DNA of 64,000 bases. It comes from an uncultured Bacillota bacterium. Lineage in GTDB: Bacteria; Bacillota_I; Bacilli_A; RF39; UBA660. A model generated the notes under the pieces. It saw only the letters and a program-made list of their open reading frames with translations, was not told the DNA's origin and did no database searches. The stretch lies in the NCBI GenBank assembly GCA_947650795.1, contig CANSWR010000001.1, positions 272 to 64,271 on the forward strand, read 5' to 3'. Both the position numbers and the translations under genes were made by a program. This document shows, in pieces, positions 24,697-42,397 of the stretch (position 1 is the first letter of the stretch; each line of letters begins with the position of its first letter).

Positions 24697-25242
24697 TTAA
24701 TTGTTCATACAAAGATTTAATATATCTTCTTCTGAGATTTCTTTATTGTATCTATCATTATATTCTGATATAAAATTGTAAATATTATTAATATAATCAT
24801 CTATTGTAGTAGCATCCTTTAATAATTTTTCTTCTAATATTTCAATACCACCTAAAACATATTGTTCAAATATTTTATTGCATTCCTCTTTTTCTTCGGT
24901 TCCAGCATTATATCTAAATGCATTATCTAATCTATCCTCAATAGATAATTTATCCTTATTGTGAAGTAACATAATTAATTCATAATTAAAATTAAGTGTT
25001 TTAGATTCGCGGTTCATTTGATCAAAATTAATCTTTTTAACATTATCAGTTGCAGGTCCTTCATCATCTCTCTTGGACATTCTTCCATATAAATAACCGA
25101 CAATAGGAGCAATTATAAGAACATCAATATTTCTTTCAAATAATTTAAATTTTGTATCACTATCTATTTCAGTAGTTAACTGTGTAACAATATTAGCGTG
25201 TTTACCTTTAAAATTATAGTCACGTTCAAACATATTACTCAC
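24697..25242 (-). CDS. Hypothetical 181-aa protein, translationally coupled partner of the SMC-like ATPase (last gene of the cargo operon)
   Basis: Start overlaps the stop of 25235-27256 by 8 nt. No recognised motif. Confidence 0.4.
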   Translation of the reverse strand: MSNMFERDYNFKGKHANIVTQLTTEIDSDTKFKLFERNIDVLIIAPIVGYLYGRMSKRDDEGPATDNVKKINFDQMNRESKTLNFNYELIMLLHNKDKLSIEDRLDNAFRYNAGTEEKEECNKIFEQYVLGGIEILEEKLLKDATTIDDYINNIYNFISEYNDRYNKEISEEDILNLCMNN

Positions 25243-27256
25243 CTACCTTTGTAATTTTACTATCAACAGGATATTCCTTATCTCTTAATGATACTTCATA
25301 TTCTATACCAATCTTAGATTGCATTTCTTTCTTTGCAATATTACCATCAGAATCTTTTATAAAGATTATTACTTGCCTGGCAATATTTGGAATAACCTCA
25401 CATATATTTTTTATTCTTCTTTGGTCGAAAGATGAAAGTGGAGCATCCATAACTAATGGATATTCATCTGTAACAATACTAGATTCTTCTGTCTTATCAT
25501 TTACTTTTTGTTTAGCTAAATTAATAACTCCAACAATGAATGCAAATATAATTGAATAACTCTTTGCAGTATTTGCATCAATATTTGCACTATTATCTTG
25601 AAGTTCATTTACATATGAAGTTATTTTATACTTTTCATCAATATTAATCGTCATACCACCAGCATATATTTGTTTAAATAAATCGTTAATTTGATCTTCA
25701 AGTTTTTCTCTTGTTTTAGCCTCTTCAAAATCATATGTTTGTTTAAACTTATTATAAGCTGCTCTTGCATATAAGATTTGTTCTTCAATTGATTTATTCT
25801 TTTCAATCTTCATTTGCAATCTACTTATTTCAGCTTCGGCATCTTGTTTTTCTTTTTCTAACACACCATTTTGAATTTCTAATCTCTTAAGTTGATCTCT
25901 TAAATCTTTAACTGTATTTTCCATATCATTTTGTCTACTCTTAAGATCTTTAACTTTAGTATTAGATGATTTTAGAATTGATTTATCTATCTCACCTATT
26001 TGATGCTCGATTTCTTCAATTTTATTACTACATCCTCTAATTGTACTTAAAAGAGATTCGATATTAGAAAAATAATTATCACTACTTTTAACTAGCATTC
26101 CAGCCCTATCTTGGAATTGACTTATTGCACTACCTAATGATTGAGGAGGAATATATTTTAATAATTGCATTAATTCTTGAACAGCATCAGATGTAGGATC
26201 AGACAAATCGCATCCACAAATACATTTTTTTCTATTCATTAAGTATTTAATAGTTTCATCTCTAACAGATGGTATACCTTTATCTACATTATCAGTATTT
26301 TTTAATTCTATTAATGCATCATTAATTAACTTTCTAGACATAAAACTAAATGTCTGTTTAGTGAAATTACTCATTAATGTTGTAATTGTGTTATTTTTAT
26401 GATTAATCTCCATTTGAAGATTTGCATTTAATTGATTTAATTCTTGTTGTAGCTTTTCCGCTTCAGCAAATGATAAAATCTCTGCTTTAGCTTTTTCTAT
26501 TTCTTTATCATAATATGATAATTCATCTTCCATTTTATCAATTTGTTCAGAATTCTTATCAATTTTATCGGAATTTGTATATATTATTTCTCTTAATCTT
26601 CTAGTTTCACTATCTCCAGCTGCATCTAATTGTGCATTATATTTACCTATAACACTATTTTTTACATTAGGATTTAAATGTTCAATAGCTTTAGTTAAAG
26701 CAGTTAAACCAAGTATATTTTGAACAGCTGTTTTAAACTCTTCACTTTTACCGCTATTAACTTCTCCAGCCATTTTTTCAATTCTTTCACCATCAAAGAA
26801 GAAATATTTTGATAATGATTCTGGTAAAATATTAGCTATTGTAGACAAGTTCTTGATTGGATTAACTATTACTGTTTGTCCATCTGGTTGTTTTTGATAT
26901 ATTTCTAAAACTGGATTTTCAGGTTTAACATTTCCACTTGTATCTTTTTTATATGTTTGTTTACGTATTATAGTATAATCAACTTCATTGTGTTCTAATT
27001 CTAATTTTGCGAATACATTTTGTTCAGTTCCACCCATCATCTCTTTTTCAACAACACTATTTAACACAGATTTATTTTTAAATCCATCTGTTTTAGAATA
27101 TAAAACCCATTGAAAAGCTTGAGCTAATGTAGTTTTTCCTGCTCCATTTTCGGCCATAACAAGTGTTATATTTTTTTCCTTATCAGTAGAGAATTCAATA
27201 ACATGTTCACCTTTAAATGGTCTAAAATTAGTTAAAGTTAATTTTTTTAGCAACAT
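25235..27256 (-). CDS. DndD-like SMC/RecF-type ABC ATPase with long coiled coil
   Basis: N-terminal Walker A LVMAENGAGKTTLAQAF. A ~300-aa coiled-coil middle. C-terminal Walker B/D-loop YPLVMDAPLSSFDQRR, matching the DndD/PtuA-like pattern (hhhhD-x-P-L-x-x-x-D). Confidence 0.7.
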   Translation of the reverse strand: MLLKKLTLTNFRPFKGEHVIEFSTDKEKNITLVMAENGAGKTTLAQAFQWVLYSKTDGFKNKSVLNSVVEKEMMGGTEQNVFAKLELEHNEVDYTIIRKQTYKKDTSGNVKPENPVLEIYQKQPDGQTVIVNPIKNLSTIANILPESLSKYFFFDGERIEKMAGEVNSGKSEEFKTAVQNILGLTALTKAIEHLNPNVKNSVIGKYNAQLDAAGDSETRRLREIIYTNSDKIDKNSEQIDKMEDELSYYDKEIEKAKAEILSFAEAEKLQQELNQLNANLQMEINHKNNTITTLMSNFTKQTFSFMSRKLINDALIELKNTDNVDKGIPSVRDETIKYLMNRKKCICGCDLSDPTSDAVQELMQLLKYIPPQSLGSAISQFQDRAGMLVKSSDNYFSNIESLLSTIRGCSNKIEEIEHQIGEIDKSILKSSNTKVKDLKSRQNDMENTVKDLRDQLKRLEIQNGVLEKEKQDAEAEISRLQMKIEKNKSIEEQILYARAAYNKFKQTYDFEEAKTREKLEDQINDLFKQIYAGGMTINIDEKYKITSYVNELQDNSANIDANTAKSYSIIFAFIVGVINLAKQKVNDKTEESSIVTDEYPLVMDAPLSSFDQRRIKNICEVIPNIARQVIIFIKDSDGNIAKKEMQSKIGIEYEVSLRDKEYPVDSKITKVGE

Positions 27257-27453
27257 TTTATTTCCTCCTCTATGATTTTTTCAATTTTCTTCTTCATATC
27301 TTCATCATTTAATTCTCTAGTTTTAACATTATTGTTTTCTAAAGTTATAATGGTTCTTACAATTCTAGTTAACTTTTGGTTATCAATCATACTTTGTTGT
27401 TCAAAATTTTGATTTGATGATTGAGTTTCAGTTTTAACTTCTTCATTATTCAT
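27247..27453 (-). CDS. Small 68-aa protein overlapping both neighbours (operon linker protein)
   Basis: Overlaps the upstream stop by 8 nt and the downstream start by 10 nt. Acidic, ends in CC. Confidence 0.3.
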   Translation of the reverse strand: MNNEEVKTETQSSNQNFEQQSMIDNQKLTRIVRTIITLENNNVKTRELNDEDMKKKIEKIIEEEIKCC

Positions 27454-29641
27454 AATAGTTTACCTCCATATCCATTTCTTCTTCATCGTTATCATCCTCA
27501 TTTAATCTATAAGTATCAGTTAGCTCATATATTAACTTATCAGATTCCATTTTACTCATAGCTAATCTATTAAATTCAATCATACGATTAACTTCATTTC
27601 TTACCATTGACTTTTCACATTTTATTTCGTCATATGTTAAATTAATAGCTTCATCTAAAGGTCTTGGTAAAGTTATGAAATCATATATTATTGCAAATTC
27701 TTTTCCTGGATATTTTCTTAATACTCTACCTCGCCTTTGAATATATTCTTTTGGATTAGTTGTACTTGCTAAAATAAATGCCGTTTTTATAGCAGGAATA
27801 TTAACACCTTCATCTAAACATTTTATTGCAATTAACGCTTGTAAATAATCTCCATCAAAGAATTTTCTTCTTAATAAATCTCTAGTATAACTATCTTCTT
27901 TTGATGTAAATTGTGCAACATTCATTTTTAATTCTTTTCCAAGTAATTCTGTTATAGCATCTATTTGTCTCATATCTTCGCCATTTTCATCTTGCTCTGC
28001 AATTTTAGTAGCACCACAATAAACCAAGATATGATTATCATCTTTATAAGGTTTAATTTCTCTAGCAAGTGCTGATACTTTATTAAATGCGCCTGCAACT
28101 AATCTTGATCTCTTTTGAGCAATTATTTTACCTTTATCGGATAATTTAGTTTTGCCATTCTTTTTTAATATACATTTTGCAATTTCTTTTGATAAACTGT
28201 GATATTCATCTAATTCTTCATCGGTTAAATATACTACAATTGGGTGATATTGATATGGGGTTAAGAATTTTTCTCCATTTTTTCCTTTAATAGCATCTTC
28301 TAACGTAAACTCAATACATTTTTCACCAAAATAATCTAAAAGTGCTTGTGTTCCTTCTTCATCTCCATGACGTTCTAATGTTGCTGAAAGAGCTAATCTA
28401 TAATTAAATTTATCAGTTAGAGTCTTTTTTAAGTTTTCGGCACCAAAATTATGTGCTTCATCAACTACTAATAAAACATTTCCTCTTATATTATTAATCT
28501 GTGATTGAATATAATCTGTAGCAAAAGTACCGTTAGTACAAACAAAACAAAAGAAATTTCTTACACCTAGATTATAATCCATTATTGCCATTTTAATTCT
28601 TTGTTTAAAATCTTTTTGTTCAGAAGAACTGTGTCCAATAATTGGGTGGATATTAAAATTAATAATATCTTCTACCCATTGATTTACTAAATGCTGATAT
28701 GGGCAAACAATTACAACTGCCAATTTACCTTTTAAATCTTTATATAATCTCGTTATTGCTCCTAACCCAGTAAAAGTTTTACCTGTTCCTGTTGCCATAT
28801 CAAATATACCACTATAATTATTATGACTCCAATTTTCTATAGCTTCTTTTTGATAATCATGTAATGTAACTCCAGCAGGTATTTCTGGTGAATTAGTAAC
28901 AGTTTTTAATTTTTCTATTGTTAAATCTATATGTTTAGTACTAAATTCTTTTTGATCTATTTCCCAATCTATACTATCCTTTCTATAAGATAATAATTTA
29001 TTTTTTACAACTGTAGGAAAATCAAAAATCATAGCACTAGCATCATCATTTTTCCATAATTTGTTAAATGCATTCTCTTTCATTGAAACTCTTTCAGGAT
29101 CGCTCCATGAAGTAAAAACATCAACGATTTCATAATTATTAATAAATGCATTTTCAGATTCGTTCATAGAACCAGAGAAAGCAACTACATTTCCTTCAGT
29201 ATCATACATTAAACCAAGTTTCTCATGATACAAACCTAATTTCTCATTTTTTAATGAAAAAGCAATTTTTATATCCAATTTCTCTTGTGCTATTAAATTA
29301 GCTAATAAATTCAATCTCTCTTCTTCAAAATAATTTTGTGGTTCTGTTATATATTGCATTAGAGCTCGTTCTACAATATCTTCTCTTGCTTCATATCCTT
29401 TATTAATTGCTTCAATATCTTCTTCCGATAAATGTGGTGAGGCAATCAATTGGATTTTTCCATTGTTGTTAATTAAGTGTGTTATTCCATATGATATTTC
29501 TAATAAAGATGATGATGAGAAAAATCCAACACTTCTTTTATATAAATTTGATTCTTTTAATAAAGGAATATAGAAATCATTTACTATATTATCTCTAGGA
29601 GATCTATATTCTTGTTTTAAATTAACATCTAATAAACTCAT
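27446..29641 (-). CDS. PLD-family (HKD) nuclease domain fused to an SF2 DEAH-type helicase
   Basis: N-terminal HKD motif LGLYHEKLGLMYDTEGNVVAFSGSMNESENAF (H-x-K-x4-D...GSxN). Helicase motif I FDMATGTGKTFTG, motif II LLVVDEAHNFG, and C-terminal motif VI-like QRRGRVLRK. Confidence 0.7.
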   Translation of the reverse strand: MSLLDVNLKQEYRSPRDNIVNDFYIPLLKESNLYKRSVGFFSSSSLLEISYGITHLINNNGKIQLIASPHLSEEDIEAINKGYEAREDIVERALMQYITEPQNYFEEERLNLLANLIAQEKLDIKIAFSLKNEKLGLYHEKLGLMYDTEGNVVAFSGSMNESENAFINNYEIVDVFTSWSDPERVSMKENAFNKLWKNDDASAMIFDFPTVVKNKLLSYRKDSIDWEIDQKEFSTKHIDLTIEKLKTVTNSPEIPAGVTLHDYQKEAIENWSHNNYSGIFDMATGTGKTFTGLGAITRLYKDLKGKLAVVIVCPYQHLVNQWVEDIINFNIHPIIGHSSSEQKDFKQRIKMAIMDYNLGVRNFFCFVCTNGTFATDYIQSQINNIRGNVLLVVDEAHNFGAENLKKTLTDKFNYRLALSATLERHGDEEGTQALLDYFGEKCIEFTLEDAIKGKNGEKFLTPYQYHPIVVYLTDEELDEYHSLSKEIAKCILKKNGKTKLSDKGKIIAQKRSRLVAGAFNKVSALAREIKPYKDDNHILVYCGATKIAEQDENGEDMRQIDAITELLGKELKMNVAQFTSKEDSYTRDLLRRKFFDGDYLQALIAIKCLDEGVNIPAIKTAFILASTTNPKEYIQRRGRVLRKYPGKEFAIIYDFITLPRPLDEAINLTYDEIKCEKSMVRNEVNRMIEFNRLAMSKMESDKLIYELTDTYRLNEDDNDEEEMDMEVNYYE

Positions 29642-29653: not shown

Positions 29654-30781
29654 TTATAAAGATTCTAATGCATTAATTAATAAATCAATATCATTTTTTG
29701 TATTAAAGTAATTTAAACTAATTCTTACAGTACCATTATACTCCATAGAGCCAATAAAGTCATGTATTAACGGTGCACAATGATACCCAGTCCTTACGTA
29801 TATACTATATTCATCATCTAAAATAGATCCAACATCATCTGATGAATAATTATTTATTCCTATAGATACCATGCCAAATATACTCTCATATTTATCTGGT
29901 AAAAATAATTTAACTTTTTTTAATGTTTTTAATTTTTCAATTAAATAATCAGTCAACTCTTTTTCATGATTATAAATATCAACATTATTAAGCCAATCAA
30001 TACTTGCATCTAATCCACAAATAGCTACAATATTTGGGCTTCCAGCTTCATATCCATCAGGTATTGTATCTGGCATATTTGGGTTCATTGTGTCAGAACC
30101 AGTTCCACCAAAAAGACTTTGTTTCAATTTATCGCTTTTTAATTTAATATAACCAGCTATACCAAATGATGCATATAAAGATTTATGTCCAGCAAAAACT
30201 ATATAATTAATATCTTCACTATTCTTAATAGGAACAATTCCGTATCCCTGTGAAGCATCAAGTATATTTATAGAATTATATTTTTTTGTTAATTGAAATA
30301 TTTTATCATAAGGTAACACATATCCTGTAACATTACTTACTTGTGAAAGAAAAATAGCTGCCGGATTATGTATTGCAAACATATCACTAATTTTATCATA
30401 ATTAGGTTTCCAAGTTTGTTTATCAAAAGGAAGTGTTTCAATATTAATATGTATTCTTTTCTTTAATTCTTCCAATGGTCTAACTATTGAATTATGCTCA
30501 AAAGGTGAAATATAAACATAATCATTTTCTTTTAACTCTATTCCAAATATTAAATCATTCAATGCTACAGTTGCAGAATTTGTATAGATAACTTTTGCAT
30601 TTTTAATATTATTTAACTTTAGTATTTTATTTCTAACAGTCTCTTTTGCTTCAGATGCCTCTCTAGCACATTTATAGCTTCCTCTACCTGTATTAAATGC
30701 ATTTCTATTTGCTTTATCGAGTGCTATGTACACATTTTCAGGTTTGGGATATGTTGTTGCCGCATTATCTAAATATATCAT
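29654..30781 (-). CDS. Group II cysteine desulfurase (DndA/SspA-like sulfur donor for DNA phosphorothioation)
   Basis: Class-V aminotransferase fold. PLP-lysine motif FAGHKSL. Active-site Cys in RTGYHCAP (SufS/CsdA-type). Confidence 0.8.
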   Translation of the reverse strand: MIYLDNAATTYPKPENVYIALDKANRNAFNTGRGSYKCAREASEAKETVRNKILKLNNIKNAKVIYTNSATVALNDLIFGIELKENDYVYISPFEHNSIVRPLEELKKRIHINIETLPFDKQTWKPNYDKISDMFAIHNPAAIFLSQVSNVTGYVLPYDKIFQLTKKYNSINILDASQGYGIVPIKNSEDINYIVFAGHKSLYASFGIAGYIKLKSDKLKQSLFGGTGSDTMNPNMPDTIPDGYEAGSPNIVAICGLDASIDWLNNVDIYNHEKELTDYLIEKLKTLKKVKLFLPDKYESIFGMVSIGINNYSSDDVGSILDDEYSIYVRTGYHCAPLIHDFIGSMEYNGTVRISLNYFNTKNDIDLLINALESL

Positions 30782-30789
30782 ATCTCACC

Positions 30790-33700
30790 TCACATATATT
30801 TTTTCATAATATCAATTAATACACTTATTTTTTCTTGTTCTGTTAATGAATCACCATATTCATTTATTATTTCTTCAATATTATTTTTCATTGTATTTCC
30901 TAATGCTGATAATTCATCACTGTTTGATAAATATTTTTCTATTTTTTCATCGCCACTTATTAAAGTAATTTTATTTGAACTATCAACACTGTTTTGATCT
31001 AATTCATTAATATTATTAATTATTTTTTCTAATTCTTCTTTAAAATTATTTATCTCATTAGGTTGCCAGTCTTCAATATAGAAACCTGTTACTATTTTTG
31101 ATATTTTTTCAATTATGTCATTTTCATCATGAGTAGTTAGTTCTTTAACATATTCAATTAGTTCTCTAGTCTTAATATCAAAAATCATATTAGATGATTC
31201 TAATTCATTATCAATTAACCAATCCTTTAATAGCGAATTTAAACTTCCCTTGTGATTTTTGTTAAATATTTCCTTAGTTTCCTTTATTACATACTCACAA
31301 TAAGAATTCATAAAACTATCAAAAGTTTGCTTCATATCCTTTATTAATTCTTTTATTTCTTCATAATTATTTGTACCAAATATTTCAATCAATTTTTGAT
31401 ATATAAATTCATTATTATTGATATCTGGTCTTAATAATTCATTTTTAATGATAATATATTTATCATTTATATTTAAATAATTGTAATCATTTGAATATTC
31501 TCTCAAAATTCTTGGTAAAGACAAAATCCATCTTCTCATTCCATCAACCAATTTTTTTAGATTAATTCTTTGATTATCAAGATTAGGAATATCATATATA
31601 TACATCAAATTTGATAAATATTTAATTTTGTCTGTTGTACCTTTTTCAGTTAAAATGTAATATTTTTCTGGATTATCATTTATTTTTATTAAATTATTGG
31701 CATCTAGATCTATTTCTTTATTCATAAAATAAATAATAATAATATCTGAATAATTGTAAAGAGCTATTGATAATAATATAGGAATAATTCCCTTTCTAAT
31801 ACTATAAGGTTTTGATTCTAATTTTTTATATAATTCACTAAAGCTCAATTTTTGGTTTTCACTATTTTCAACAAACGAATTTATTATCTTTAAAACTTCT
31901 TTAATTGATGATGTATTCTTTTTATCTACGATTGCTTTATAAATAGTAGCTTCAGCACTTGTCTTACTTTTTATTAAGGATAAGTCATTATTTAATACAG
32001 TATCAATTACAATATCTCTTGCTTTTTTTATTGGAGCGGATAGTTCTCTTTTATTTATCATTTCATTGTTGACTATAGGTGTTTTTGAATATATATCAAA
32101 GCATATATTAGATAAATATGAACTCAAATTTGTAACATTTTTATTTTTATTATTCATATATAAATATTCTTGTATGTTATCTGATGAAAAATATATTGAT
32201 AATTGTTCTATGAGTACTTCCATAGTTTCTTTCTTTATTAAAGAAAGTTCGTTATTAGTTTCGTCATTTTCTTTATTATTAATTAAATATTCTATCGATT
32301 TATACTCTCTTAATAATGAAACAATATTTTTAGGAAATATAGTTTTAGGTATTCTTAATACTACTCTATCATTTTTTAATTCAATAAAATGATCAATTAT
32401 ACTTTGTACATTTCTTGAATTCCTTATTAGATTAATAATAACACCATCGCAATAATTATTTTCAAATAAAATATCTAGATTTTTAATAGATAATAGTTCT
32501 TCTTCTGTCATATAAACATTATCAAAAAATCTTGTAATTTTAAATTCTTCATTATATCTACGTGGAAGAGAATATTTTTTTGTTTCTACCTCATTAATTA
32601 AATCTTTAATATTAATATCATAAAATTGATTTTCACTTAGTCTTTTAATTTCTTTAGATAATTCTCTATTGTATATATTAGTAAAATCAAGTTCATTTGT
32701 AATTTTTCTTCGTTTTATTATGCTTTTATCTATTAGTTTATTAATTATTTCTTCATATTTTGAAGAAGCCATATCAACTGATAATCTCAAAGTATTATCA
32801 TCAGGAACAAGTATTTCAGTCTCATTAATCATATAAATAATAGATAATGATTTAATTAAATCTTTTTCTTCTAACTCGTTGCATTTTGCTAAAGCATTTT
32901 CTGTCTTTAACCAAATATTCCTAATAACATCTGTTGTTTCTTTTTTGAAAAGAGGTCTAAAATAATCATATATCTTGCTAACATTAAATAATCCTTTACT
33001 GTTATTTGAAATAAAATACTTTAGTCCATTTTGATCATCATCAGTTAAAAACGTAAATAATGTTCTTTCATTTTGAGCTATTTTTTCAGATAATTGTATA
33101 AGACAGTATACTGTTAATGGATTTAATGGATAACATCCTCTATATAGAATATCTTCAATCTTATCTACATTTTTAAATATTGTTAATGATTTTATTTCAT
33201 CATATGTGTTTAAATATTTATTATAAAATGTATCAAATATTTCATCATATCCATCTTTTTTATTTAGAGCATATGAAACTATTTCATAGTTTTGCTCAAT
33301 ACTTCTATTAAAATATAATTCTTTAAATCTTCCTTCAACTGTTTTAAAAGCATTTAATTTGTCTTCTGTTAAATTTTTTGCATATTGATTGATTGTTTTA
33401 TGTGTTATACAACTTAAATGTATTTGTTCTGTTTCTCCAGTTCTATTTGCTAATTCAGCAAAATCTTGTAGTAATTTTAAGTCTTTCATCATATGTGAAT
33501 TTTCAACATATTCTAAAAATTTACTGAATTCATCAAATACAATGAACATTCCAGAATATCCATATTCAGTTATTTCGTGAGCCATATCTTTATATATTTT
33601 AACAATATCTGAATTAACTAATGGATTAAATTCTTGTCCATGTAATATACAACTATATACATTTTTAAATATTGCATAGTATTCTTCAGAATAATTTTTT

Positions 33701-34299
33701 AATCCCTGCTTTAAGTCTTTAAATGAACAATTATATTCAGATAAACATTTTTTAATTTCACTTATTACATCTTTATATTCATCTTCCCATTTTAAGATAA
33801 CTTTTAATGCAATATCAAAATAGGTATTTACTACTATAGATGAAAGTTTTTCTCTTTCTAATGACTCTGATAAAGCTAATAAGAATGCCTGATTTAAATC
33901 ACCATAATTACTATTAATGATAATTGGCATTAACTTAGTTTTTGTATCTCGTATATTTTTAATTAATTCATATGTATCGGAATCTACTTTTTTTATTTTA
34001 TTTAAAAAGATATCAATATCCTTTTTGTCTTCAGTATTATAGTTATTTAATAATGTGATAAGAACAAGTAATAAATGAGATTTACCTTTTCCATATGGGC
34101 CAATTAATGTAGTTGCTCTATTCTTAGAATTTAATACACTATTAAAATACTGGCCTAATAATTCACAACCATCTTTTGTGGGAATATACTCATTAATTTT
34201 TGATATGTTATTAATATCAAATTGCAAATTAACAGAGTATTGAAAATTCTCATTAACACTTATATAGTCTTTGTATTTCATACTATACACCTCATTCAA
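30790..34299 (-). CDS. Large P-loop ATPase of the DUF499-like class (SspC/BrxC-like)
   Basis: Walker A near the N-terminus: LIGPYGKGKSHLLLVL. 1169 aa, helical. Lies in the operon between the 281-aa gene and the desulfurase, as sspC does in sspABCD loci. No methyltransferase, PglZ or Lon nearby, so a BREX assignment is disfavoured. Confidence 0.5.
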   Translation of the reverse strand: MNEVYSMKYKDYISVNENFQYSVNLQFDINNISKINEYIPTKDGCELLGQYFNSVLNSKNRATTLIGPYGKGKSHLLLVLITLLNNYNTEDKKDIDIFLNKIKKVDSDTYELIKNIRDTKTKLMPIIINSNYGDLNQAFLLALSESLEREKLSSIVVNTYFDIALKVILKWEDEYKDVISEIKKCLSEYNCSFKDLKQGLKNYSEEYYAIFKNVYSCILHGQEFNPLVNSDIVKIYKDMAHEITEYGYSGMFIVFDEFSKFLEYVENSHMMKDLKLLQDFAELANRTGETEQIHLSCITHKTINQYAKNLTEDKLNAFKTVEGRFKELYFNRSIEQNYEIVSYALNKKDGYDEIFDTFYNKYLNTYDEIKSLTIFKNVDKIEDILYRGCYPLNPLTVYCLIQLSEKIAQNERTLFTFLTDDDQNGLKYFISNNSKGLFNVSKIYDYFRPLFKKETTDVIRNIWLKTENALAKCNELEEKDLIKSLSIIYMINETEILVPDDNTLRLSVDMASSKYEEIINKLIDKSIIKRRKITNELDFTNIYNRELSKEIKRLSENQFYDINIKDLINEVETKKYSLPRRYNEEFKITRFFDNVYMTEEELLSIKNLDILFENNYCDGVIINLIRNSRNVQSIIDHFIELKNDRVVLRIPKTIFPKNIVSLLREYKSIEYLINNKENDETNNELSLIKKETMEVLIEQLSIYFSSDNIQEYLYMNNKNKNVTNLSSYLSNICFDIYSKTPIVNNEMINKRELSAPIKKARDIVIDTVLNNDLSLIKSKTSAEATIYKAIVDKKNTSSIKEVLKIINSFVENSENQKLSFSELYKKLESKPYSIRKGIIPILLSIALYNYSDIIIIYFMNKEIDLDANNLIKINDNPEKYYILTEKGTTDKIKYLSNLMYIYDIPNLDNQRINLKKLVDGMRRWILSLPRILREYSNDYNYLNINDKYIIIKNELLRPDINNNEFIYQKLIEIFGTNNYEEIKELIKDMKQTFDSFMNSYCEYVIKETKEIFNKNHKGSLNSLLKDWLIDNELESSNMIFDIKTRELIEYVKELTTHDENDIIEKISKIVTGFYIEDWQPNEINNFKEELEKIINNINELDQNSVDSSNKITLISGDEKIEKYLSNSDELSALGNTMKNNIEEIINEYGDSLTEQEKISVLIDIMKKYM

Positions 34300-35137
34300 A
34301 ATGTTCTTTCATAATCTCATCAATTGACATTTTTGTCGTAAAATAAATCATATTCAATCCAGCAGTTCTATTAATAACGATTAAATCTTGTTTTTTCATT
34401 TCATCTAAATATTCATTTATTAGATTTTTATCTAAATTTAATAGTTTAGCTGGGCTATTATCTAATTTTATTAAGTCATCAATACTTAAATAATCTTTAT
34501 CCTCAGATAAAATAACCATCAAATAATAAACAATCAAATAATTTAAATTTCTAAAATCCGGTTTTACTCTTTCATAGGCATTTATATCCACTTTTTTAAT
34601 TAGATTTAATTCAGATAAAGGACAAATAAAATTATTTTCTGGATTATCGATTTTTTCATCAATAGAATATGTTTTTATAATCATATTAACTTCATCTTGT
34701 AAAATATTCTCACTATATTCTAATTTATTATTATTTAAAATTTGTGATATTTGTTCAAAAATATCTCTTTTTGAAAACACTTTCATTGTACATTTATTAA
34801 AAAACAAGTTATAAATATATGAATCTTCAATATTTAAAATCATTTTAATATGTATTAACCACCATGAAAAATTATCTTCTAAATATGGATCATATTTATC
34901 AATTAATTCACCAAACTTAGATAATGTGATAGAACGATTATTTTCTTCAATAAGACAAGTTGCAGACATCCAATATTTTAAGGATTTAACCATATTTGTA
35001 CCAATGCCTAATATATCTGTTGCATCAGCAGAAGAAAATGCTTTAGAATCTTCTTTTATTGTTCTAATCCCTTTTGCTAACCATCCCTCTCTAATTGAAA
35101 AACTTTCATGTCTTTTCATTTTTACTTTATTAATCAT
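34292..35137 (-). CDS. 281-aa protein in the position and size of SspB (DUF4007-like candidate DNA nicking/targeting subunit)
   Basis: Overlaps the downstream ATPase gene by 8 nt and follows the PAPS-reductase gene by 4 nt. Assigned from context and size only. Confidence 0.3.
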   Translation of the reverse strand: MINKVKMKRHESFSIREGWLAKGIRTIKEDSKAFSSADATDILGIGTNMVKSLKYWMSATCLIEENNRSITLSKFGELIDKYDPYLEDNFSWWLIHIKMILNIEDSYIYNLFFNKCTMKVFSKRDIFEQISQILNNNKLEYSENILQDEVNMIIKTYSIDEKIDNPENNFICPLSELNLIKKVDINAYERVKPDFRNLNYLIVYYLMVILSEDKDYLSIDDLIKLDNSPAKLLNLDKNLINEYLDEMKKQDLIVINRTAGLNMIYFTTKMSIDEIMKEHFE

Positions 35138-35141
35138 AGTT

Positions 35142-36893
35142 TTACTCCTTATCTTGTTTAGTTCTTAATACCTTTTTCATATAGCATCCACCACTAAAAT
35201 GTTTAACACATTCTAAACATCCTATACACTTCTTTTCATTTATCGTATATGATATATCAAATTTTTCTCCATCTTGTTTATTATTATGTTTAATTGTAAT
35301 TGCATCATATTTGCAAACACTTTCACAAGCCATACATCCAATACATGTTTGAAATTTTGTAATTTGGTTTTTTATAAGCATTTCACGAATTTTAGGATTG
35401 CTAAATACTTTAGTTTCCTTTAAAACAGAAACCTTTAAAAGTTTTTGTCCTACTTTACCAGTTAATTTTAATATTGGCTCTTTCGTTCTTTTATCTAAGA
35501 TATATACTTCTCCTAATCTCTTATTTCCAATATTAAAATCAAGTAATCCAAATGGCTTGAACAATTCGTACAATGTGTCATTAATTGGTTTATTTAAATC
35601 AAAATTAAATGCATTTTCTTCTAATACACAAGGTTTAAAAGATAGTATTGCATTTTCACTATAATTTAATCCATTCCCACCTTGTCTGGCTTTCCATCCA
35701 CCAGAAGAAATATATTCTTTTGGATCTGGTTTGCCGATTTGTGCAGCAAAATCTAATAATATATCATGAAATTTAATATATTCATCTTCCATATATATAC
35801 TGGATAAATATTCAGACCAATAGGAATTATTTGGGCAACACCAGCATCCAACCCTTGAAAATCCTTTTCTATAGGCACTATTAAATGGTATTTTTCTTGT
35901 TAATATATATAGCCACACATCAAAATCCATCCAGTCAATAATTGGTGCTACTGTTTCTTGCTTAGTTATTTTTGCACCTTTACTCTCCCTATCATATTTA
36001 CTACGAGCAATTGATTCGTTTCTCCTTAATCCTTGAAAAGTTAAAATTTTAGTTTTATTTTTAAAAGTTGCATCTATTTTTCTAGTAATGGAGCCTGTTT
36101 TGAAAATAGTACAACACCATCTCATCATTCTACTTGGAGGGCCTATAACTTTGCATAATTCATTAAAATTCTGTTCTTTATTTTTCGCTACAAGTAAAGG
36201 TGTTGTAGGGTGTATTTTTTTGAATTCTTGTAAATAATCTCCTGTCTCAGGATATTCAAGAGTTGTATCTCCATAGATGTGTATTATCTTATCTGTTCCC
36301 AATGAATTCATTACCAAATCACTTGTTACCGTAGAATCTTTACCACCTGAAAAAGAAACAAACATTGAATCTACATTGTATTTTTTTGAAATGTTTTTTA
36401 TGTAATCATGTGCTTCAGTAACAATTGAGCTATATCTGACACTATTTGCTTCAATGAATTTTCTTATATATGATTCTTCATAAAATGACTCAACATATTT
36501 TTGATTTTCTTTTTCGTTTTCTTGAATTATTTTTTTAACATCTTTATAATTAATATTATTAACAATATTTTTTACAGAAAATTTTATTTTTTCACCATTT
36601 ACAAAATAATAATTACCAGAAGTATTCCATACTGACTTTCCCACATATTTAAAAGGTTCTTTTTCAATAGCCTCTAATAATAATCTTTCTTGAGGAAATA
36701 CAGGCCTTATATCTGTTCCTATATACTCGGATTTCTTTCCACATATAGAGCAAACATTGTCAAATAAAGGTATATTACAATGTTTGCAATAATATATTTC
36801 AGATTTATCAATATAAGTTCTATTATTGCATACAGGACAGGTACTTGATTCACATATTAAATTGTCACAGTTACTACATACATATTTAATCAC
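35142..36893 (-). CDS. PAPS-reductase/ATP-pyrophosphatase family protein (DndC/SspD-like) with N-terminal 4xCxxC zinc ribbons and C-terminal double [4Fe-4S] ferredoxin motif
   Basis: PP-loop FVSFSGGKDSTVTSDL. N-terminal CSNC...CPVC...CKHC...CSIC. C-terminal CIGCMACESVC and CIGCLECVKHFSGGC. Confidence 0.75.
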   Translation of the reverse strand: MIKYVCSNCDNLICESSTCPVCNNRTYIDKSEIYYCKHCNIPLFDNVCSICGKKSEYIGTDIRPVFPQERLLLEAIEKEPFKYVGKSVWNTSGNYYFVNGEKIKFSVKNIVNNINYKDVKKIIQENEKENQKYVESFYEESYIRKFIEANSVRYSSIVTEAHDYIKNISKKYNVDSMFVSFSGGKDSTVTSDLVMNSLGTDKIIHIYGDTTLEYPETGDYLQEFKKIHPTTPLLVAKNKEQNFNELCKVIGPPSRMMRWCCTIFKTGSITRKIDATFKNKTKILTFQGLRRNESIARSKYDRESKGAKITKQETVAPIIDWMDFDVWLYILTRKIPFNSAYRKGFSRVGCWCCPNNSYWSEYLSSIYMEDEYIKFHDILLDFAAQIGKPDPKEYISSGGWKARQGGNGLNYSENAILSFKPCVLEENAFNFDLNKPINDTLYELFKPFGLLDFNIGNKRLGEVYILDKRTKEPILKLTGKVGQKLLKVSVLKETKVFSNPKIREMLIKNQITKFQTCIGCMACESVCKYDAITIKHNNKQDGEKFDISYTINEKKCIGCLECVKHFSGGCYMKKVLRTKQDKE

Positions 36894-37017
36894 ACAATAT
36901 CCCTCCTATACATTTGCATCCTCTTAAATATTATATCATATTTTTTACTGGAGAAAAATATTTTTATTAAATGTTTCTCCAGTTTTTATTTTGCAAAAAA
37001 ATTAGTAGCAAAAGCTA

Positions 37018-39420
37018 CTAATCAATATATTGTAATATATCAAAATCATTAATATCCTCATCATAATAGTCTTTACTCCTGTAAACACAGTCGATAGAAT
37101 TATCAAAATAATATTTTTTCTTATCTATAAATTCTTTTATATAGTATTCATATAAATCAATGTTATATTTTTCAAGAATATCTTTTTTTATTTCGCTAAC
37201 AAATATTTTGTTTTTCGTTACAAAACTATTTATGAATTTCTCTCTTGTTGCTTGTTCATCTGTTTTAATAAATACTACATTATTTTTTACAGTGAAAGTT
37301 TTAATATTAGGTATTGTAGATATAATAGTTTCATAAAAACAATCAGGAAAATTATGATTTTTTAAATTAGTTAAAAAATTATCTTTGTCTAAAGTGTATA
37401 GATTAAAATACTCATTTTCAGAAATAACTTTTTCTATTTCATTGATAAATTCTTTTATATTATCTTTACTTATTCCTAGCTCATTTAATCTTTTTATTGT
37501 AATATATTTTTCATTTTCAATTTCAAACAAATCAAGATTATATATAAATTTGTATAAATAACTAGAAAAAGTTGAACCTATTTTTTTCATTTCAGGTTTT
37601 ATTTCATAATAATCATTATTTAAAATTATATTACGTAAATATCCTTCTAAATTAGTAATAGAACTTTTCATTATATAGTTTCCTCTTAGCTTATATCCTA
37701 ATTTAGACATATTTAGATTATTAATCAGTTTAAAATCATTTACATCAAATAAATCTGTCAACAATTCTTTTATAGTTAAAATAGAATATATATCTTCTGT
37801 CAATCTTTCTTTTAATATATCCATTTGCTCTTGAGTAAATTCAGGACATTCACTTATAATTTGACCATTAGTAATATATTTACTAAAATTGTTTACTAAC
37901 AAAGCTCTAAAGGTATTATTTTTATGTCCATAATTTTGATATGCATAATCAACGAATTCATCTAAACTAATAGGAGACAATTCATGAATAAGATTATCAA
38001 TAAAGGCATTTTTATCATCACAATCAATAAATATATCAGGCATTCTTGAATAAATAATTTTACCATTATAATTTCCAATAAATTTTCTTAATAAATTATG
38101 TAATTCATATTCATTCTTTATATTTATATTTTTCATTAATAATTCATTGTTATTAAAGAAAAACTCAGCTGAATAATCACCAGATTCTACTTCTAACATT
38201 TTCTGAAGAGCTTTAACATCATCCTCATCAAGAGCATCGATATCATAATATCTATAATATCTACCTGCATCGCATAAAACATAATTAGATCTATTTAGTA
38301 TTGAATCAATATTTCTAAAATCCGCCTCACTTATAAGTTCAACATCTAAATTATTAGACTTTATTATCTCATTATATTCATTCATAATTTCAGAGTATTC
38401 CATTACTTTATCTGAACGTTTTAATATAGCATTTAATATATTAATCTTTTTAACAACTATGTTTTCACCTTTATATGAAATTAAATTATATTTCTTTTTT
38501 AATATAGCTAATTGTCTTTTATCCAAATTCCAACTATCTATTAATTCAGAAGGTTCAGTATCTCCCATTTTATATTTTTCACGTAAATAATAATATATAT
38601 ATTCATTTACATTAAAAAATTCACAAAATAGTTCACAATCGAAATTATAGGTTTCAAATATTTCTCTGTATTTTTCTTCTTCTCTAGTTGTAACAAATTT
38701 TTTAATTTCTTTCTGAATTATTTGTCTGATTCTTTCTCTTGTAATATTATATTCACTACCTATAGATTCCAAAGTTCTTCCAGTTAATTTTTTCAAAACC
38801 ATATCTTTATGATTTGAATCTTTTATTTTTTGTAATTCTTCTTTTAGTCTAGGTTTAACTAATGAATAATTAAGGTCCTCTTTTTTTAAAACTTTTTTAT
38901 TCAAAAAATCATTTAATAAAAATGATAAATCAGATGTATCATAATTACATTTTAAAACTTCTTCTTCAAGTTGTTCATAATAAAAAATATCATAACCATA
39001 TATATTTTTTATTAATGTTAATAATAAGTTCGATGTTAATTTTAATTTAATATGATTATTCATAATAAATTCATTATAACTCTTCATTATTTTTCTAAAT
39101 GTTGAATCGCTAATATAATCCTTGTGAGCAAGATTATCATTAATATCATCTATTGAAATATTATTTTTCACCAATAATCCAGTTATAGTTTTAGACAACC
39201 CAAAATACATCAAATCATAAATGGAAAATGTCTGTTCGTTATTAACCAATTCGTAAATTATATTCTTAATTTCTTCGGCTCTTTCACTTTTTGTACCAAG
39301 AACCTCATTTAAGCAATTTGGATTATTAATAATGCTATCACAAGTGATATTATTTTCTTTTAATCTTAATGCTGTATTATAAGGTATTCCAAAATCACAT
39401 AGTCTAAATATTGAATGCAT
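37018..39420 (-). CDS. 800-aa protein with sigma-70 region-4-type HTH and two RNAP alpha-CTD-like helix-hairpin-helix modules
   Basis: Sigma r4-like segment LTGRTLESIGSEYNITRERIRQIIQKEIKKF. N-terminal HhH-like repeats (LCDFGIPYNTALRLKENNITCDSI; IYDLMYFGLSKTITGLLVKNNISIDDI). Separated from the defence operon by 124 bp. Confidence 0.4.
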   Translation of the reverse strand: MHSIFRLCDFGIPYNTALRLKENNITCDSIINNPNCLNEVLGTKSERAEEIKNIIYELVNNEQTFSIYDLMYFGLSKTITGLLVKNNISIDDINDNLAHKDYISDSTFRKIMKSYNEFIMNNHIKLKLTSNLLLTLIKNIYGYDIFYYEQLEEEVLKCNYDTSDLSFLLNDFLNKKVLKKEDLNYSLVKPRLKEELQKIKDSNHKDMVLKKLTGRTLESIGSEYNITRERIRQIIQKEIKKFVTTREEEKYREIFETYNFDCELFCEFFNVNEYIYYYLREKYKMGDTEPSELIDSWNLDKRQLAILKKKYNLISYKGENIVVKKINILNAILKRSDKVMEYSEIMNEYNEIIKSNNLDVELISEADFRNIDSILNRSNYVLCDAGRYYRYYDIDALDEDDVKALQKMLEVESGDYSAEFFFNNNELLMKNINIKNEYELHNLLRKFIGNYNGKIIYSRMPDIFIDCDDKNAFIDNLIHELSPISLDEFVDYAYQNYGHKNNTFRALLVNNFSKYITNGQIISECPEFTQEQMDILKERLTEDIYSILTIKELLTDLFDVNDFKLINNLNMSKLGYKLRGNYIMKSSITNLEGYLRNIILNNDYYEIKPEMKKIGSTFSSYLYKFIYNLDLFEIENEKYITIKRLNELGISKDNIKEFINEIEKVISENEYFNLYTLDKDNFLTNLKNHNFPDCFYETIISTIPNIKTFTVKNNVVFIKTDEQATREKFINSFVTKNKIFVSEIKKDILEKYNIDLYEYYIKEFIDKKKYYFDNSIDCVYRSKDYYDEDINDFDILQYID

Positions 39421-39491: not shown

Positions 39492-39725
39492 CTAATCATC
39501 TTCGTAATAATAATCGTCTTCCTCTAAATTCTCTTCTTCAAAATTCCAAGGTTCATATTCTCCTTTTTTTACTAATTCTTTTTGCCAATCTTCTAATCCA
39601 TATGCATCTAACTCTTTATCCGTGTAGTTGCTATTATTTTGTTGTTCCTCTATGAAAGAAAACAATCCAAATGCTTGTTGACTTTTCTTTTTGTTATTTC
39701 CAAATAAATCATCAAATAATCCCAT
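39492..39725 (-). CDS. Small highly acidic protein (77 aa)
   Basis: C-terminal EEENLEEDDYYYEDD tail. Lies between the 800-aa gene and the T4CP. Confidence 0.3.
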   Translation of the reverse strand: MGLFDDLFGNNKKKSQQAFGLFSFIEEQQNNSNYTDKELDAYGLEDWQKELVKKGEYEPWNFEEENLEEDDYYYEDD

Positions 39726-41951: not shown

Positions 41952-42397
41952 GCTATATCGTACCCTTCATCTAATTCTCTACAGTAATCTATAATGCTAT
42001 CTAATGTATCGTTTGAATCTAAAGAGCAAAGATAACTTTCTAAATCATCTTCTTGATCTTCAGTAATTTTAATATCATTATCATTTAAATAGGAATATGC
42101 AAAGTACTTCATAACATCATCTTTATATTCATATAGTTCTTGCTCAAAAGCATAATACTGTCCCTGTTGAATCTGTTTTATTATGTCATTAGGATTGCCA
42201 AATTCTTTAGTTGCTTCATCAATATACCATAAATTATTCTTTCCCCATTCAAATAAATCTGATGTATATAGATCCACATTGCTATTAGCAATTTCAGAAA
42301 ACACATCACCAATATAACCAGAATCATAATTTGTAATATCTGAACCATAACAAAATTTTAGTTCTAATTCTAAATCGTTTATTATATCATCATACAT
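41948..42397 (-). CDS. Acidic hypothetical protein (149 aa)
   Basis: Start/stop overlap with the T4CP gene. D/E/Y-rich. No ArdA signature. Confidence 0.3.
   Translation of the reverse strand: MYDDIINDLELELKFCYGSDITNYDSGYIGDVFSEIANSNVDLYTSDLFEWGKNNLWYIDEATKEFGNPNDIIKQIQQGQYYAFEQELYEYKDDVMKYFAYSYLNDNDIKITEDQEDDLESYLCSLDSNDTLDSIIDYCRELDEGYDIA

What the first reader, a model, noticed from the sequence alone, without database searches (positions are those of the whole stretch)
37018..39420. 800-aa protein assembled from RNA-polymerase-like DNA-binding modules next to the defence operon
This protein has a sigma-70 region-4-type HTH (LESIGSEYNITRERIRQII) in its middle and two alpha-CTD-like helix-hairpin-helix repeats at its N-terminus. 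The rest is ~500 aa of helical sequence with no enzymatic motif.

It is transcribed in the same direction as the defence operon, 124 bp upstream. It could be a dedicated regulator (a counterpart to BrxR/DndB-type control). It could also be a transcription-interfering or RNAP-decoy factor, or an Abi-like sensor. I do not recognise the architecture.
Basis: partly seen in the sequence, partly recalled or inferred. Interest (0 to 1): 0.55.

Follow-up and report, generated by a model that had tools for sequence, protein, structure and literature searches.

The report
Sigma-like DNA binder beside defence operon
This 800-residue protein has no enzyme domain and is built almost entirely of DNA-binding modules, including a close copy of sigma-factor region 4; it belongs to a large unstudied family that sits at the head of many DNA-targeting defence operons and here accompanies a phosphorothioate restriction-modification cassette on a conjugative element.

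Summary
The ORF is real: 37018-39420, minus strand, 800 aa. The sigma-70 region-4 HTH is confirmed by Pfam (above the gathering score) and by Foldseek (probability 1.0, rmsd 1.3 A). The two N-terminal repeats are helix-hairpin-helix-like. Their link to alpha-CTD is only indirect: distant relatives carry true alpha-CTD repeats at the same position.

The C-terminal ~550 aa is not plain helix. It is a chain of winged-helix modules with no enzymatic motif.

The protein ("FAM" below) belongs to a large uncharacterised family, with at least 1,203 clusters at 50% identity. NCBI names it only "sigma factor-like helix-turn-helix DNA-binding protein".

- Relatives at 48% identity or more precede the same BrxP/SspD-SspB-SspC-SspA-PbeABCD operon in 16 of 17 loci.
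- Sister operons 68-71% and 41% identical lack the gene, so it is an accessory.
- They keep the same promoter and inverted repeat, which argues against FAM acting through that operator.
- Distant relatives are translationally coupled to an unknown 400-aa protein and a SNF2 or PLD-SNF2 helicase. Some are fused to MutH, and one heads a BREX type 4 operon.

My best reading is a non-catalytic DNA-reading adaptor or sensor for the helicase-nuclease arm (confidence 0.4). A dedicated transcriptional regulator is the main rival (0.25).

The parts
37018..39420 (-). FAM gene: 800-aa multi-module DNA-binding protein (family named by NCBI 'sigma factor-like helix-turn-helix DNA-binding protein')
   Evidence: ORF found. 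Homologues found. AF2 model has pLDDT 87.6.
39235..39420 (-). aa 1-62: helix-hairpin-helix-like repeat 1. It has five helices and keeps an LGTKS hairpin.
   Evidence: Modelled. It aligns with true alpha-CTD repeats of distant relatives. hhalign gives P 8e-6. There is no direct Pfam or PDB match.
39046..39234 (-). aa 63-125: helix-hairpin-helix-like repeat 2 (degenerate)
38851..39045 (-). aa 126-190: winged-helix module. This is the most variable part of the protein, at 37% mean identity within the close clade.
   Evidence: Secondary structure H-H-H-E-E. Variability measured.
38686..38850 (-). aa 191-245: sigma-70 region 4 (4.1 + 4.2) domain. Its recognition helix TRERIRQI is the same as in primary sigma factors.
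   Evidence: PF04545 E 8.9e-6. PDB SigA hits. Foldseek probability 1.0, rmsd 1.3 A. T216, E229, R230, R232 and Q233 are invariant in the family.
37042..38685 (-). aa 246-793: family-defining C-terminal array of winged-helix-like modules, with no enzymatic motif
   Evidence: The best Foldseek matches are tandem-winged-helix proteins such as UFL1, SelB WH1-4, cullin and TFIIIC. The region is conserved down to 23% identity.
38017..38244 (-). aa 393-468: the most conserved winged helix of the family. Recognition helix NEYELHNLLRK plus wing SRMPD; L440, H441 and P461 are invariant.
37000..37023 (-). Intrinsic terminator of the FAM gene. The hairpin includes the stop codon and is followed by a T-run.
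   Evidence: Predicted energy -11.8 kcal/mol, z -5.4. Hairpins of different sequence sit at the same place in homologous loci.
36947..36983 (.). Inverted repeat ACTGGAGAAA-N17-TTTCTCCAGT that overlaps the -35 position of the operon promoter. It is a feature of the operon, not specific to FAM.
   Evidence: Unique in the window, with 0 expected by chance. Present in all 16 FAM-linked loci that hold this region, and also in the FAM-less loci L182 and L183.
36930..36938 (-). Extended -10 element TGATATAAT of the Ssp-Pbe operon promoter
   Evidence: Read directly from the sequence. Conserved in homologous loci with and without FAM.
35142..36893 (-). First operon gene: BrxP/SspD-like PAPS reductase with a 4Fe-4S domain
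   Evidence: Pfam PAPS_reduct E 4.6e-33 plus Fer4. PADLOC BrxP E 2.3e-84.
29654..35137 (-). sspB (DUF4007, 34292-35137), sspC (30790-34299) and sspA cysteine desulfurase (29654-30781)
24697..29641 (-). pbeA (PLD + SF2 helicase, 27446-29641), pbeB (68 aa, 27247-27453), pbeC (DndD/SMC-like, 25235-27256) and pbeD-like (181 aa, 24697-25242)
   Evidence: PADLOC PbeA E 3.8e-249 and PbeC E 1.5e-108. TIGR04095 and TIGR04062. Small ORF found. Sizes match PbeB and PbeD as described in PMC6459918.

Best explanation
FAM is a non-catalytic, multi-module DNA-binding protein. It carries two HhH-like repeats, one variable winged helix, a faithful sigma region-4 domain, and an array of about seven winged helices that defines the family.

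I propose that it is an accessory DNA-reading adaptor or sensor for the adjacent phosphorothioate restriction-modification cassette. It would bind DNA and couple to the helicase-nuclease (PbeA-type) restriction arm. It is neither a sigma factor nor a core enzyme of the system.

Shown:
- The domain composition.
- Membership of a large family.
- Strict synteny with the operon within one clade.
- Dispensability in sister operons.
- Separate transcription: the gene has its own terminator, and the operon then has its own promoter.
- It is the fastest-evolving gene of the cassette.

Inferred from relatives:
- In most family members the gene is translationally coupled to a conserved 400-580-aa partner (c1), and often to a SNF2 helicase or a PLD-SNF2 helicase whose PLD domain is homologous to that of PbeA.
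- In several lineages the protein is fused to, or encoded beside, a MutH-type endonuclease.
- The family therefore appears to work physically with nuclease/helicase effectors on DNA.

Inferred from established knowledge of sigma-70 region 4.2:
- The residues that read the -35 hexamer (R584, E585, R588 and Q589 in E. coli numbering) are invariant across the family. This domain is therefore expected to bind -35-like DNA or another ligand of sigma region 4.

Not shown:
- Any DNA target, any protein partner in this locus, or any phenotype.
For: Domain composition:
- Sigma region 4 is supported.
- The winged-helix array is supported.
- No catalytic domain was found.

Link to the operon:
- The same 8-gene operon follows FAM in 16 of 17 evaluable loci with FAM at 48% identity or more, while the upstream genes differ.
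- FAM has diverged to 48-57% identity where the operon proteins remain 68-84% identical.

Family context:
- 65 of 69 evaluable distant loci have FAM adjacent to c1. 32 have a SNF2 or PLD-SNF2 helicase within three genes, and 11 have a HIRAN protein.
- FAM, c1 and c2 overlap or abut, which points to coupled translation.
- The PLD domain of c2 is homologous to that of PbeA: PADLOC PbeA E 2e-61 and BLASTP 31% identity over 258 aa, E 2e-26.
- N-terminal MutH fusions occur, or a separate MutH gene plus a C5 methyltransferase lies nearby.
- A 1449-aa family member lies 5 nt upstream of a bona fide BREX type 4 brxP-brxC-pglZ operon.

Conservation pattern:
- The most conserved motif family-wide is the recognition helix and wing of one winged helix. 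The sigma-4 contact residues are invariant. Both fit a common ligand rather than locus-specific operators.

Missing partner:
- No c1 homologue exists anywhere in the window, so this clade must use another partner.
Against: - In this clade FAM is not translationally coupled to the operon. A terminator and a separate promoter lie between them. That layout is more typical of a regulator than of a stoichiometric subunit.
- Sister operons with all eight genes lack FAM, so the Ssp-Pbe machinery presumably works without it.
- FAM heads several unrelated systems: the c1-helicase trio, BREX type 4, Ssp-Pbe and dcm-vsr. That pattern is also what promiscuous defence regulators such as BrxR show.
- No interaction, DNA target or phenotype has been tested.
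- Many of the loci counted are near-identical, so the counts are loci, not independent lineages.
Confidence: 0.4

Rival explanations
1. FAM is a dedicated transcriptional regulator, or sensor-regulator, of the Ssp-Pbe operon. It would be a functional counterpart of DndB, BrxR or R-M controller proteins, binding near the operon promoter and setting or timing expression, for example after the conjugative element enters a new host.
For: - It lies upstream in the same orientation and is separately transcribed, with its own conserved terminator followed by an operon promoter.
- It has a sigma region-4 HTH.
- It is an accessory rather than a core gene.
- An inverted repeat overlaps the -35 position of an extended -10 promoter.
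- Family members head several different defence systems, including BREX type 4, as BrxR-type regulators do.
- The position is analogous to that of dndB (PMC6459918).
Against: - The inverted repeat and promoter are the same in operons that lack FAM (L182, L183). The only candidate operator is therefore not FAM-specific, and the promoter does not depend on FAM.
- No conserved motif lies upstream of FAM itself.
- The size (800-1580 aa), roughly ten DNA-binding modules, MutH nuclease fusions and translational coupling to c1 and a helicase in relatives are atypical for a regulator.
- The most conserved DNA-reading elements are invariant across unrelated operon contexts.
Confidence: 0.25
2. FAM is an RNA-polymerase mimic. 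The sigma region-4 copy and the alpha-CTD-derived repeats would act either as a decoy that senses phage proteins targeting these RNAP modules, or as a reader of promoter upstream DNA (UP element plus -35). On detection it would trigger or guide the neighbouring effectors.
For: - Region 4.2 is nearly the same as in housekeeping SigA, including every -35-contact residue and the basic patch. These residues stay invariant down to 23% overall identity.
- True alpha-CTD repeats, up to four copies, occur in relatives.
- The variable N-terminus and fast evolution fit a host-parasite interface.
- The context is consistently defence-type.
Against: - There is no direct evidence.
- In the window protein the alpha-CTD-like repeats are degenerate. 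By the alignment, the residues at the positions of alpha R265 and N268 are replaced.
- Simple DNA binding explains the same conservation.
- The protein has no region 2, so core RNAP binding like a sigma factor is not expected.
Confidence: 0.12
3. FAM has no functional link to the operon. It would be a remnant of a FAM-c1-helicase system that lost its partners, or an independent cargo gene that travels with the cassette only because the two are tightly linked on mobile elements.
For: - The operon is complete without it.
- FAM has its own terminator.
- c1, its usual partner in 65 of 69 distant loci, is absent from the window.
- Defence genes cluster in islands regardless of function.
Against: - The gene is intact, keeps its full length and all its domains, and stays adjacent through divergence to 48% identity and several different upstream contexts. 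A decaying remnant would not behave this way.
- An independent family lineage also attaches to a BrxP-type PT system.
Confidence: 0.15

Closest known systems
Sigma-70 family sigma factors (region 4 only)
   Same: aa 191-245 fold as region 4.1 + 4.2. The recognition helix TRERIRQI is the same as in primary sigma factors, and identity to SigA r4 is 34-38%.
   Different: There is no region 2 or 3. All NCBIfam sigma models match only through their region-4 end and score far below their cut-offs. The protein also carries about 550 aa of winged helices that no sigma factor has.
RNA polymerase alpha subunit C-terminal domain (PF03118)
   Same: Distant family members carry 2-4 bona fide alpha-CTD repeats at the N-terminus. 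The window's two repeats occupy the same position, and repeat 1 keeps the G-x-K-S hairpin.
   Different: The window's own repeats match alpha-CTD in no direct sequence or fold search.
DndB / BrxR / R-M controller proteins (regulators of modification-based defence)
   Same: An accessory gene at the head of a PT or BREX-type operon in the same orientation, with DNA-binding domains (PMC6459918).
   Different: There is no ParB/DGQHR, WYL or HTH_3 domain. FAM is 5-10 times larger. The operator-like repeat persists without it.
MzaA (sigma-70-like protein of the Mza anti-phage system)
   Same: A large defence-associated protein with a sigma region-4 HTH.
   Different: The match covers about 32 residues of region 4 only: 24 bits against a cut-off of 800 and PADLOC E 0.0018. 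In MzaA the HTH is C-terminal. The other Mza genes are absent.
Multi-winged-helix DNA-scanning subunits of PT/BREX systems (SspB/DUF4007, BrxA, DndG)
   Same: Non-catalytic proteins made of tandem HTH or winged-helix modules, proposed to scan or recognise DNA for an ATPase/nuclease partner (PMC10853773 and PMC12839542).
   Different: There is no detectable homology: hhalign probability is 0.1% against the SspB alignment. FAM has 7-8 winged helices plus sigma-4 and HhH modules instead of three. SspB is itself present in the operon.
PglW (BREX type 2 / Pgl kinase), HhH region
   Same: The alpha-CTD-type repeats of distant family members match PglW residues ~800-915 in PADLOC (E 6e-8 to 2e-7). 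Such repeats therefore recur in defence proteins.
   Different: There is no kinase domain, and the window protein itself gives no PglW hit.

Membership tests
Sigma-70 family RNA polymerase sigma factor | Region 4 (-35-binding HTH) | tested here: met
   PF04545 E 8.9e-6, above the gathering score. PDB SigA r4 hits. Foldseek probability 1.0.
Sigma-70 family RNA polymerase sigma factor | Region 2 (core binding and -10 recognition), and a whole-protein score above the family cut-off | tested here: not met
   No Sigma70_r2 or r3 hit. TIGR02937 scores 19.6 bits against a cut-off of 42.9, and the RpoD models score 26-29 bits against cut-offs of 555-779. All alignments are confined to the region-4 end of the models.
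RNA polymerase alpha C-terminal domain (PF03118) | Significant match to the alpha-CTD profile or fold | tested here: inconclusive
   The window protein has no Pfam hit, no hit to an HMM of the family's true repeats, a PDB profile hit to 1doq at E 0.94, and no alpha-CTD chain in the Foldseek top 50. Against this, hhalign to the true repeats gives P 8e-6, and 8 of 35 aligned relatives carry PF03118 at the aligned position.
MzaA (Mza anti-phage system) | Full-length match to NF041931 / PDLC02203 | tested here: not met
   24.4 bits against a cut-off of 800, covering residues 213-244 only. PADLOC E 0.0018 over 33 residues.
DndB-type regulator | ParB-like DGQHR domain | tested here: not met
   No DndB, ParB or DUF262 hit in Pfam, NCBIfam or PADLOC.
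BrxR-type regulator | wHTH plus WYL domain, about 300 aa | tested here: not met
   No WYL or BrxR hit. Length is 800 aa.
SspB / BrxA / DndG tripartite wHTH | Homology to DUF4007 | tested here: not met
   hhalign of the FAM C-terminal profile against an SspB alignment gives probability 0.1%. SspB is a separate gene at 34292-35137.
FAM family (NCBI name 'sigma factor-like helix-turn-helix DNA-binding protein'; uncharacterised) | Sigma-4 HTH followed by the conserved ~550-aa C-terminal winged-helix array with YELHN, RMP and NYGH motifs | tested here: met
   Full-length alignment down to 23% identity, with invariant columns. 1,203 representatives at E <= 1e-30. The name is taken from plasmid records.
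FAM family (uncharacterised) | Adjacent c1 partner gene (400-580 aa, DGNRR motif), the usual context of the family | tested here: not met
   c1 is adjacent in 65 of 69 distant loci. It is absent next to FAM in the Ssp-linked clade and absent from the whole window.

The most novel reading that the evidence does not exclude
FAM and its family are RNA-polymerase mimics used in immunity. A near-exact copy of housekeeping sigma region 4 plus alpha-CTD-derived repeats would either bait phage proteins that hijack these RNAP modules, or read strong promoter upstream DNA (UP element plus -35) on invading DNA. The winged-helix array would then pass the signal to helicase/nuclease effectors: PbeA here, SNF2, PLD-SNF2, MutH or HIRAN elsewhere.
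Probability: 0.12. Interest if true: 0.85.

Novelty: new variant of a known kind. Interest (0 to 1): 0.6.

Why it matters
Phosphorothioate and BREX-type systems are thought to rely on non-catalytic DNA-scanning subunits, but how they find and judge DNA is unresolved. This gene exposes a large family that no paper in the searched library describes, with at least 1,200 clusters at 50% identity. It occurs on 48 Enterococcus plasmid records in PLSDB, among others. The family joins RNAP-derived promoter-reading modules to a long winged-helix array, and it is wired in operons to helicases, PLD and MutH nucleases, HIRAN proteins, BREX type 4 and Ssp-Pbe. If it is a DNA reader or sensor for these effectors, it gives an experimentally tractable handle on target selection in modification-based immunity. 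The FAM-c1-helicase trio would also be a candidate new defence system on clinically relevant plasmids.

Tried and rejected
- The genome-contig scan with the full-length alignment returned only true sigma-factor genes, because the pattern came from region 4. It gave no family loci and no host taxonomy.
- Direct tests of alpha-CTD similarity for the window's repeats failed: HMM, PDB profile and Foldseek on a dedicated N-terminal model.
- The FAM C-terminal profile is unrelated to SspB/DUF4007 and to c1.
- c1 has no Pfam, NCBIfam, PADLOC or PDB-sequence match. The ParB-like reading rests only on the DGNRR motif and a PF18763 hit at E 0.004, and is unverified.
- There is no match in the phage collection, and nothing specific in the viral fold library.
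- Literature searches found no description of the family. The PT and BREX comparative papers do not mention it.
- I considered the inverted repeat at 36947-36983 as FAM's operator. I largely rejected this because FAM-less operons keep it.
- By eye, the 156-aa gene that replaces FAM in L182 and L184 looked like a small sigma-4 protein. Pfam and BLASTP gave no support.
- The C-terminal extension of the 1449-aa relative is not a fused c1.
Full report
**Observation**

The window has about 25% G+C, and nearly all genes lie on the minus strand. The ORF at 37018-39420 (minus strand) encodes 800 aa.

Sigma region 4:
- Pfam gives one hit, Sigma70_r4, at aa 212-237 (E 8.9e-6, 25.6 bits against a gathering score of 24.1).
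- NCBIfam sigma models match only through their region-4 end and lie far below their cut-offs.
- phmmer against PDB sequences returns SigA region 4 (7l7b_F, E 2.6e-5). The alignment runs through 4.1 and 4.2.

Two AlphaFold2 models were made:
- The full-length model has pLDDT 87.6 and pTM 0.41.
- The model of aa 1-250 has pLDDT 92.

Together they show the following layout:
- Two five-helix repeats (aa 1-62 and 63-125).
- A winged helix (aa 126-190).
- The sigma-4 domain (aa 191-245).
- A chain of helix-helix-helix-strand-strand modules that runs to residue ~793.

Foldseek against the PDB supports this layout:
- SigA-r4 chimeras match with probability 1.0, rmsd 1.3-2.3 A and 34-38% identity.
- For the rest of the protein, the best matches are proteins built of tandem winged helices, such as UFL1, SelB WH1-4, cullin and TFIIIC.

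The HTH, the orientation and the 124-bp spacing are therefore confirmed. The "helical rest" is really a winged-helix array.

**The alpha-CTD claim**

The window's own repeats give no significant direct match:
- Pfam finds nothing.
- An HMM trained on the true alpha-CTD repeats of distant relatives finds nothing.
- A PDB profile search gives only weak HhH hits: Dmc1 N-terminus at E 0.05 and RpoA CTD 1doq at E 0.94.
- No alpha-CTD chain appears in the Foldseek top 50.

The link is indirect:
- 8 of 35 aligned family members carry PF03118 repeats (E down to 1.9e-47) at the same N-terminal position.
- Further members carry up to four copies.
- A profile-profile comparison of the degenerate repeats with the true ones gives P 8e-6.
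- Repeat 1 keeps an LGTKS hairpin, but the positions aligned with alpha R265 and N268 are replaced.

**Surroundings**

The downstream genes on the same strand are:

| Gene | Coordinates | Evidence |
|---|---|---|
| BrxP/SspD-like PAPS reductase with a 4Fe-4S domain | 35142-36893 | PADLOC BrxP 2.3e-84 |
| SspB/DUF4007 | 34292-35137 | Pfam DUF4007 3.3e-74; PADLOC SspB 1.9e-52 |
| SspC | 30790-34299 | PADLOC SspC 2.5e-104 |
| SspA cysteine desulfurase | 29654-30781 | Pfam Aminotran_5 2.6e-63; PADLOC SspA 8.8e-28 |
| PbeA | 27446-29641 | PADLOC 3.8e-249 |
| PbeB-sized ORF (68 aa) | 27247-27453 | ORF only; size as PbeB |
| PbeC | 25235-27256 | PADLOC PbeC 1.5e-108 |
| PbeD-like (181 aa) | 24697-25242 | NCBIfam TIGR04062 (dnd_assoc_4), E 7.9e-5, below its cut-off |

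The cassette is cargo of a conjugative element. The element carries a coupling protein (39840-41951), a relaxase (43482-44861), a VirB4-like ATPase (47707-50169) and a serine recombinase (19872-21554).

**Transcription signals**

- Directly after the FAM stop codon lies an intrinsic terminator (37000-37023; -11.8 kcal/mol, z -5.4). Homologous loci have hairpins of different sequence followed by a T-run at the same place.
- Next comes an inverted repeat, ACTGGAGAAA-N17-TTTCTCCAGT (36947-36983). It is unique in the window, with 0 expected by chance.
- The repeat overlaps the -35 position of an extended -10 promoter, TGATATAAT.

FAM and the operon are therefore separate transcription units.

**The family**

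- The word-indexed search found 173 relatives. All are metagenomic or MAG proteins without a functional name.
- The exhaustive profile search found 1,203 representatives of 50%-identity clusters at E <= 1e-30. Their lengths are ~690-1580 aa. The core is conserved and the N-terminal extensions vary.
- A metagenome scan with the C-terminal profile found 335 encoding loci, of which 80 were fetched. The viral collection gave 3.
- The phage collection gave no match.
- 52 plasmid records carry a member, 48 of them from Enterococcus. They are annotated only as "sigma factor-like helix-turn-helix DNA-binding protein".
- I found no paper that describes the family.
- Family-wide invariant residues are T216, E229, R230, R232 and Q233. 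By alignment with SigA, and from textbook knowledge of region 4.2, these include the -35-contacting residues. Also invariant are L440, H441 and P461 in the recognition helix and wing of one winged helix.
- The N-terminal repeats and the first winged helix are the most variable parts.

**Gene neighbourhoods**

I called ORFs myself and clustered them by BLASTP.

For members at 48% identity or more to the window protein:
- 16 of 17 evaluable loci have the same operon immediately downstream: PAPS reductase, SspB, SspC, SspA, PbeA and PbeC.
- The upstream genes differ. Examples are a radical SAM/HIRAN/ankyrin cluster, T4SS genes and others.
- FAM is the fastest-evolving gene of the cassette. It is 48-57% identical where the operon proteins are 68-84% identical.

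For members at 25-35% identity:
- 65 of 69 loci have FAM adjacent to c1, a 400-580-aa protein without any database annotation. c1 has invariant DGNRRxTC and QHGE motifs, and the word-indexed profile search returned 4,210 relatives.
- 32 loci also have a SNF2 helicase within three genes. In its ~865-aa form this helicase carries an N-terminal PLD domain homologous to that of PbeA.
- 11 loci have a HIRAN protein.
- 12 loci have a C5 methyltransferase and/or a MutH-like gene nearby.
- In these loci the genes overlap or abut.
- Several FAM proteins are fused to an N-terminal MutH domain (E 7e-29).
- One 1449-aa member lies 5 nt upstream of a bona fide BREX type 4 brxP-brxC-pglZ operon.
- The window contains no c1 homologue and only one FAM copy.

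Many loci are near-identical, so these are counts of loci, not of independent events.

**The test from the operon side**

The PAPS-reductase family is far larger than FAM, with 7,549 hits at E <= 1e-30. Several related operons have no FAM gene:
- Three loci whose reductase is 68-71% identical carry the same operon (L182, L183, L184). Two have an unrelated 156-aa gene in that position, and one has nothing.
- A 41%-identical operon on Treponema saccharophilum pTS1 also lacks it.

The FAM-less loci L182 and L183 retain the same inverted repeat and extended -10 promoter.

FAM is therefore an accessory acquired by one clade of the operon. The operator-like repeat belongs to the operon, not to FAM. 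No conserved motif lies upstream of FAM itself.

**Interpretation**

FAM is not a sigma factor, because it has no region 2. It is also not MzaA, DndB, BrxR or an SspB-type protein (see the membership tests).

Its relatives are coupled to, or fused with, helicases and nucleases. This argues that the family acts on DNA together with such effectors. In the window clade the c1 partner is missing and the only conserved neighbours are the Ssp-Pbe genes. One of these is PbeA, whose PLD domain recurs next to distant FAM genes.

My preferred explanation is that FAM is a non-catalytic DNA-reading adaptor or sensor serving the restriction arm of this cassette (confidence 0.4).

The rivals are:
- **A dedicated transcriptional regulator (0.25).** This is favoured by the separate transcription unit and by dispensability. 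It is weakened by the operator test, the protein's size and the nuclease fusions.
- **An RNAP mimic, acting as a decoy or promoter reader (0.12).**
- **A linked but functionally independent gene (0.15).**

All mechanistic steps are inferred. No binding target, partner or phenotype has been tested.

**Novelty**

The gene is a member of a large but uncharacterised family. Its association with a hybrid Ssp-PbeABCD cassette, and in another lineage with BREX type 4, is not described in the literature I could search. I rate it a new variant of a known kind, namely non-catalytic DNA-binding accessory subunits of modification-based defence, with an interest score of 0.6.

Noticed in passing
window 36930-36983; also L182 7458-7493 and L183 ~7897-7932: An inverted repeat (half-site consensus ACTGGA[GAT][AG]AA) plus an extended -10 promoter is conserved in front of the brxP-like operon across loci 68-100% identical, with or without the FAM gene. 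The protein that binds it is unknown.
   Followed up: partly
L178 7194-12869 (E. faecalis plasmid pBE5_2); also L155, L013, L010 and many others: FAM, a 400-580-aa unannotated protein (c1; invariant DGNRRxTC and QHGE motifs; 4,210 relatives in the word-indexed search, none of the listed ones with a Pfam domain) and a SNF2 or PLD-SNF2 helicase form a widespread, tightly coupled trio. It is a candidate uncharacterised defence system and occurs on 48 Enterococcus plasmid records.
   Followed up: partly
L177 8903-21643 (IMGVR_UViG_3300012156_000101): A 1449-aa family member lies 5 nt upstream of a bona fide BREX type 4 operon: BrxP E 5e-237, BrxC E 3e-300, and PglZ. This is a second, independent attachment of the family to a PAPS-reductase-based system.
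   Followed up: partly
window 24697-36893: The defence operon is a hybrid. BREX-4/Ssp-type modification genes (BrxP-like reductase with Fer4, SspB, SspC, SspA) are joined to a complete PbeABCD restriction module. PbeABCD was first described next to dndCDEA in archaea.
   Followed up: partly
window 19872-21554, 39840-51853, 55213-57927, 61136-63983: The window is an integrative conjugative element. It carries a serine recombinase, relaxase, coupling protein, VirB4-like ATPase and a thioester/SpaA adhesin. Wadjet JetD and a JetC-like gene lie at its far end.
   Followed up: partly
window 39492-39725 (minus strand): A 77-aa strongly acidic ORF lies just upstream of FAM. Its C-terminal motif (DDWQK..GEY.PW.F.E....D.YYYEDD) recurs in the gene upstream of FAM in L106. 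It may be a DNA mimic; this is untested.
   Followed up: no
window 11502-15047 (minus strand): A group-II-chaperonin-like protein (Cpn60_TCP1, E 3.8e-38) lies close to a radical SAM protein that has a helix-hairpin-helix tail. This is an unusual pairing for a bacterial element.
   Followed up: no
L182 and L184, 7538-8008: In FAM-less sister operons a 156-aa gene of unknown function overlaps the start of the brxP-like gene. By eye it looks like a sigma-4/LuxR-type HTH, but Pfam and BLASTP give no support.
   Followed up: partly
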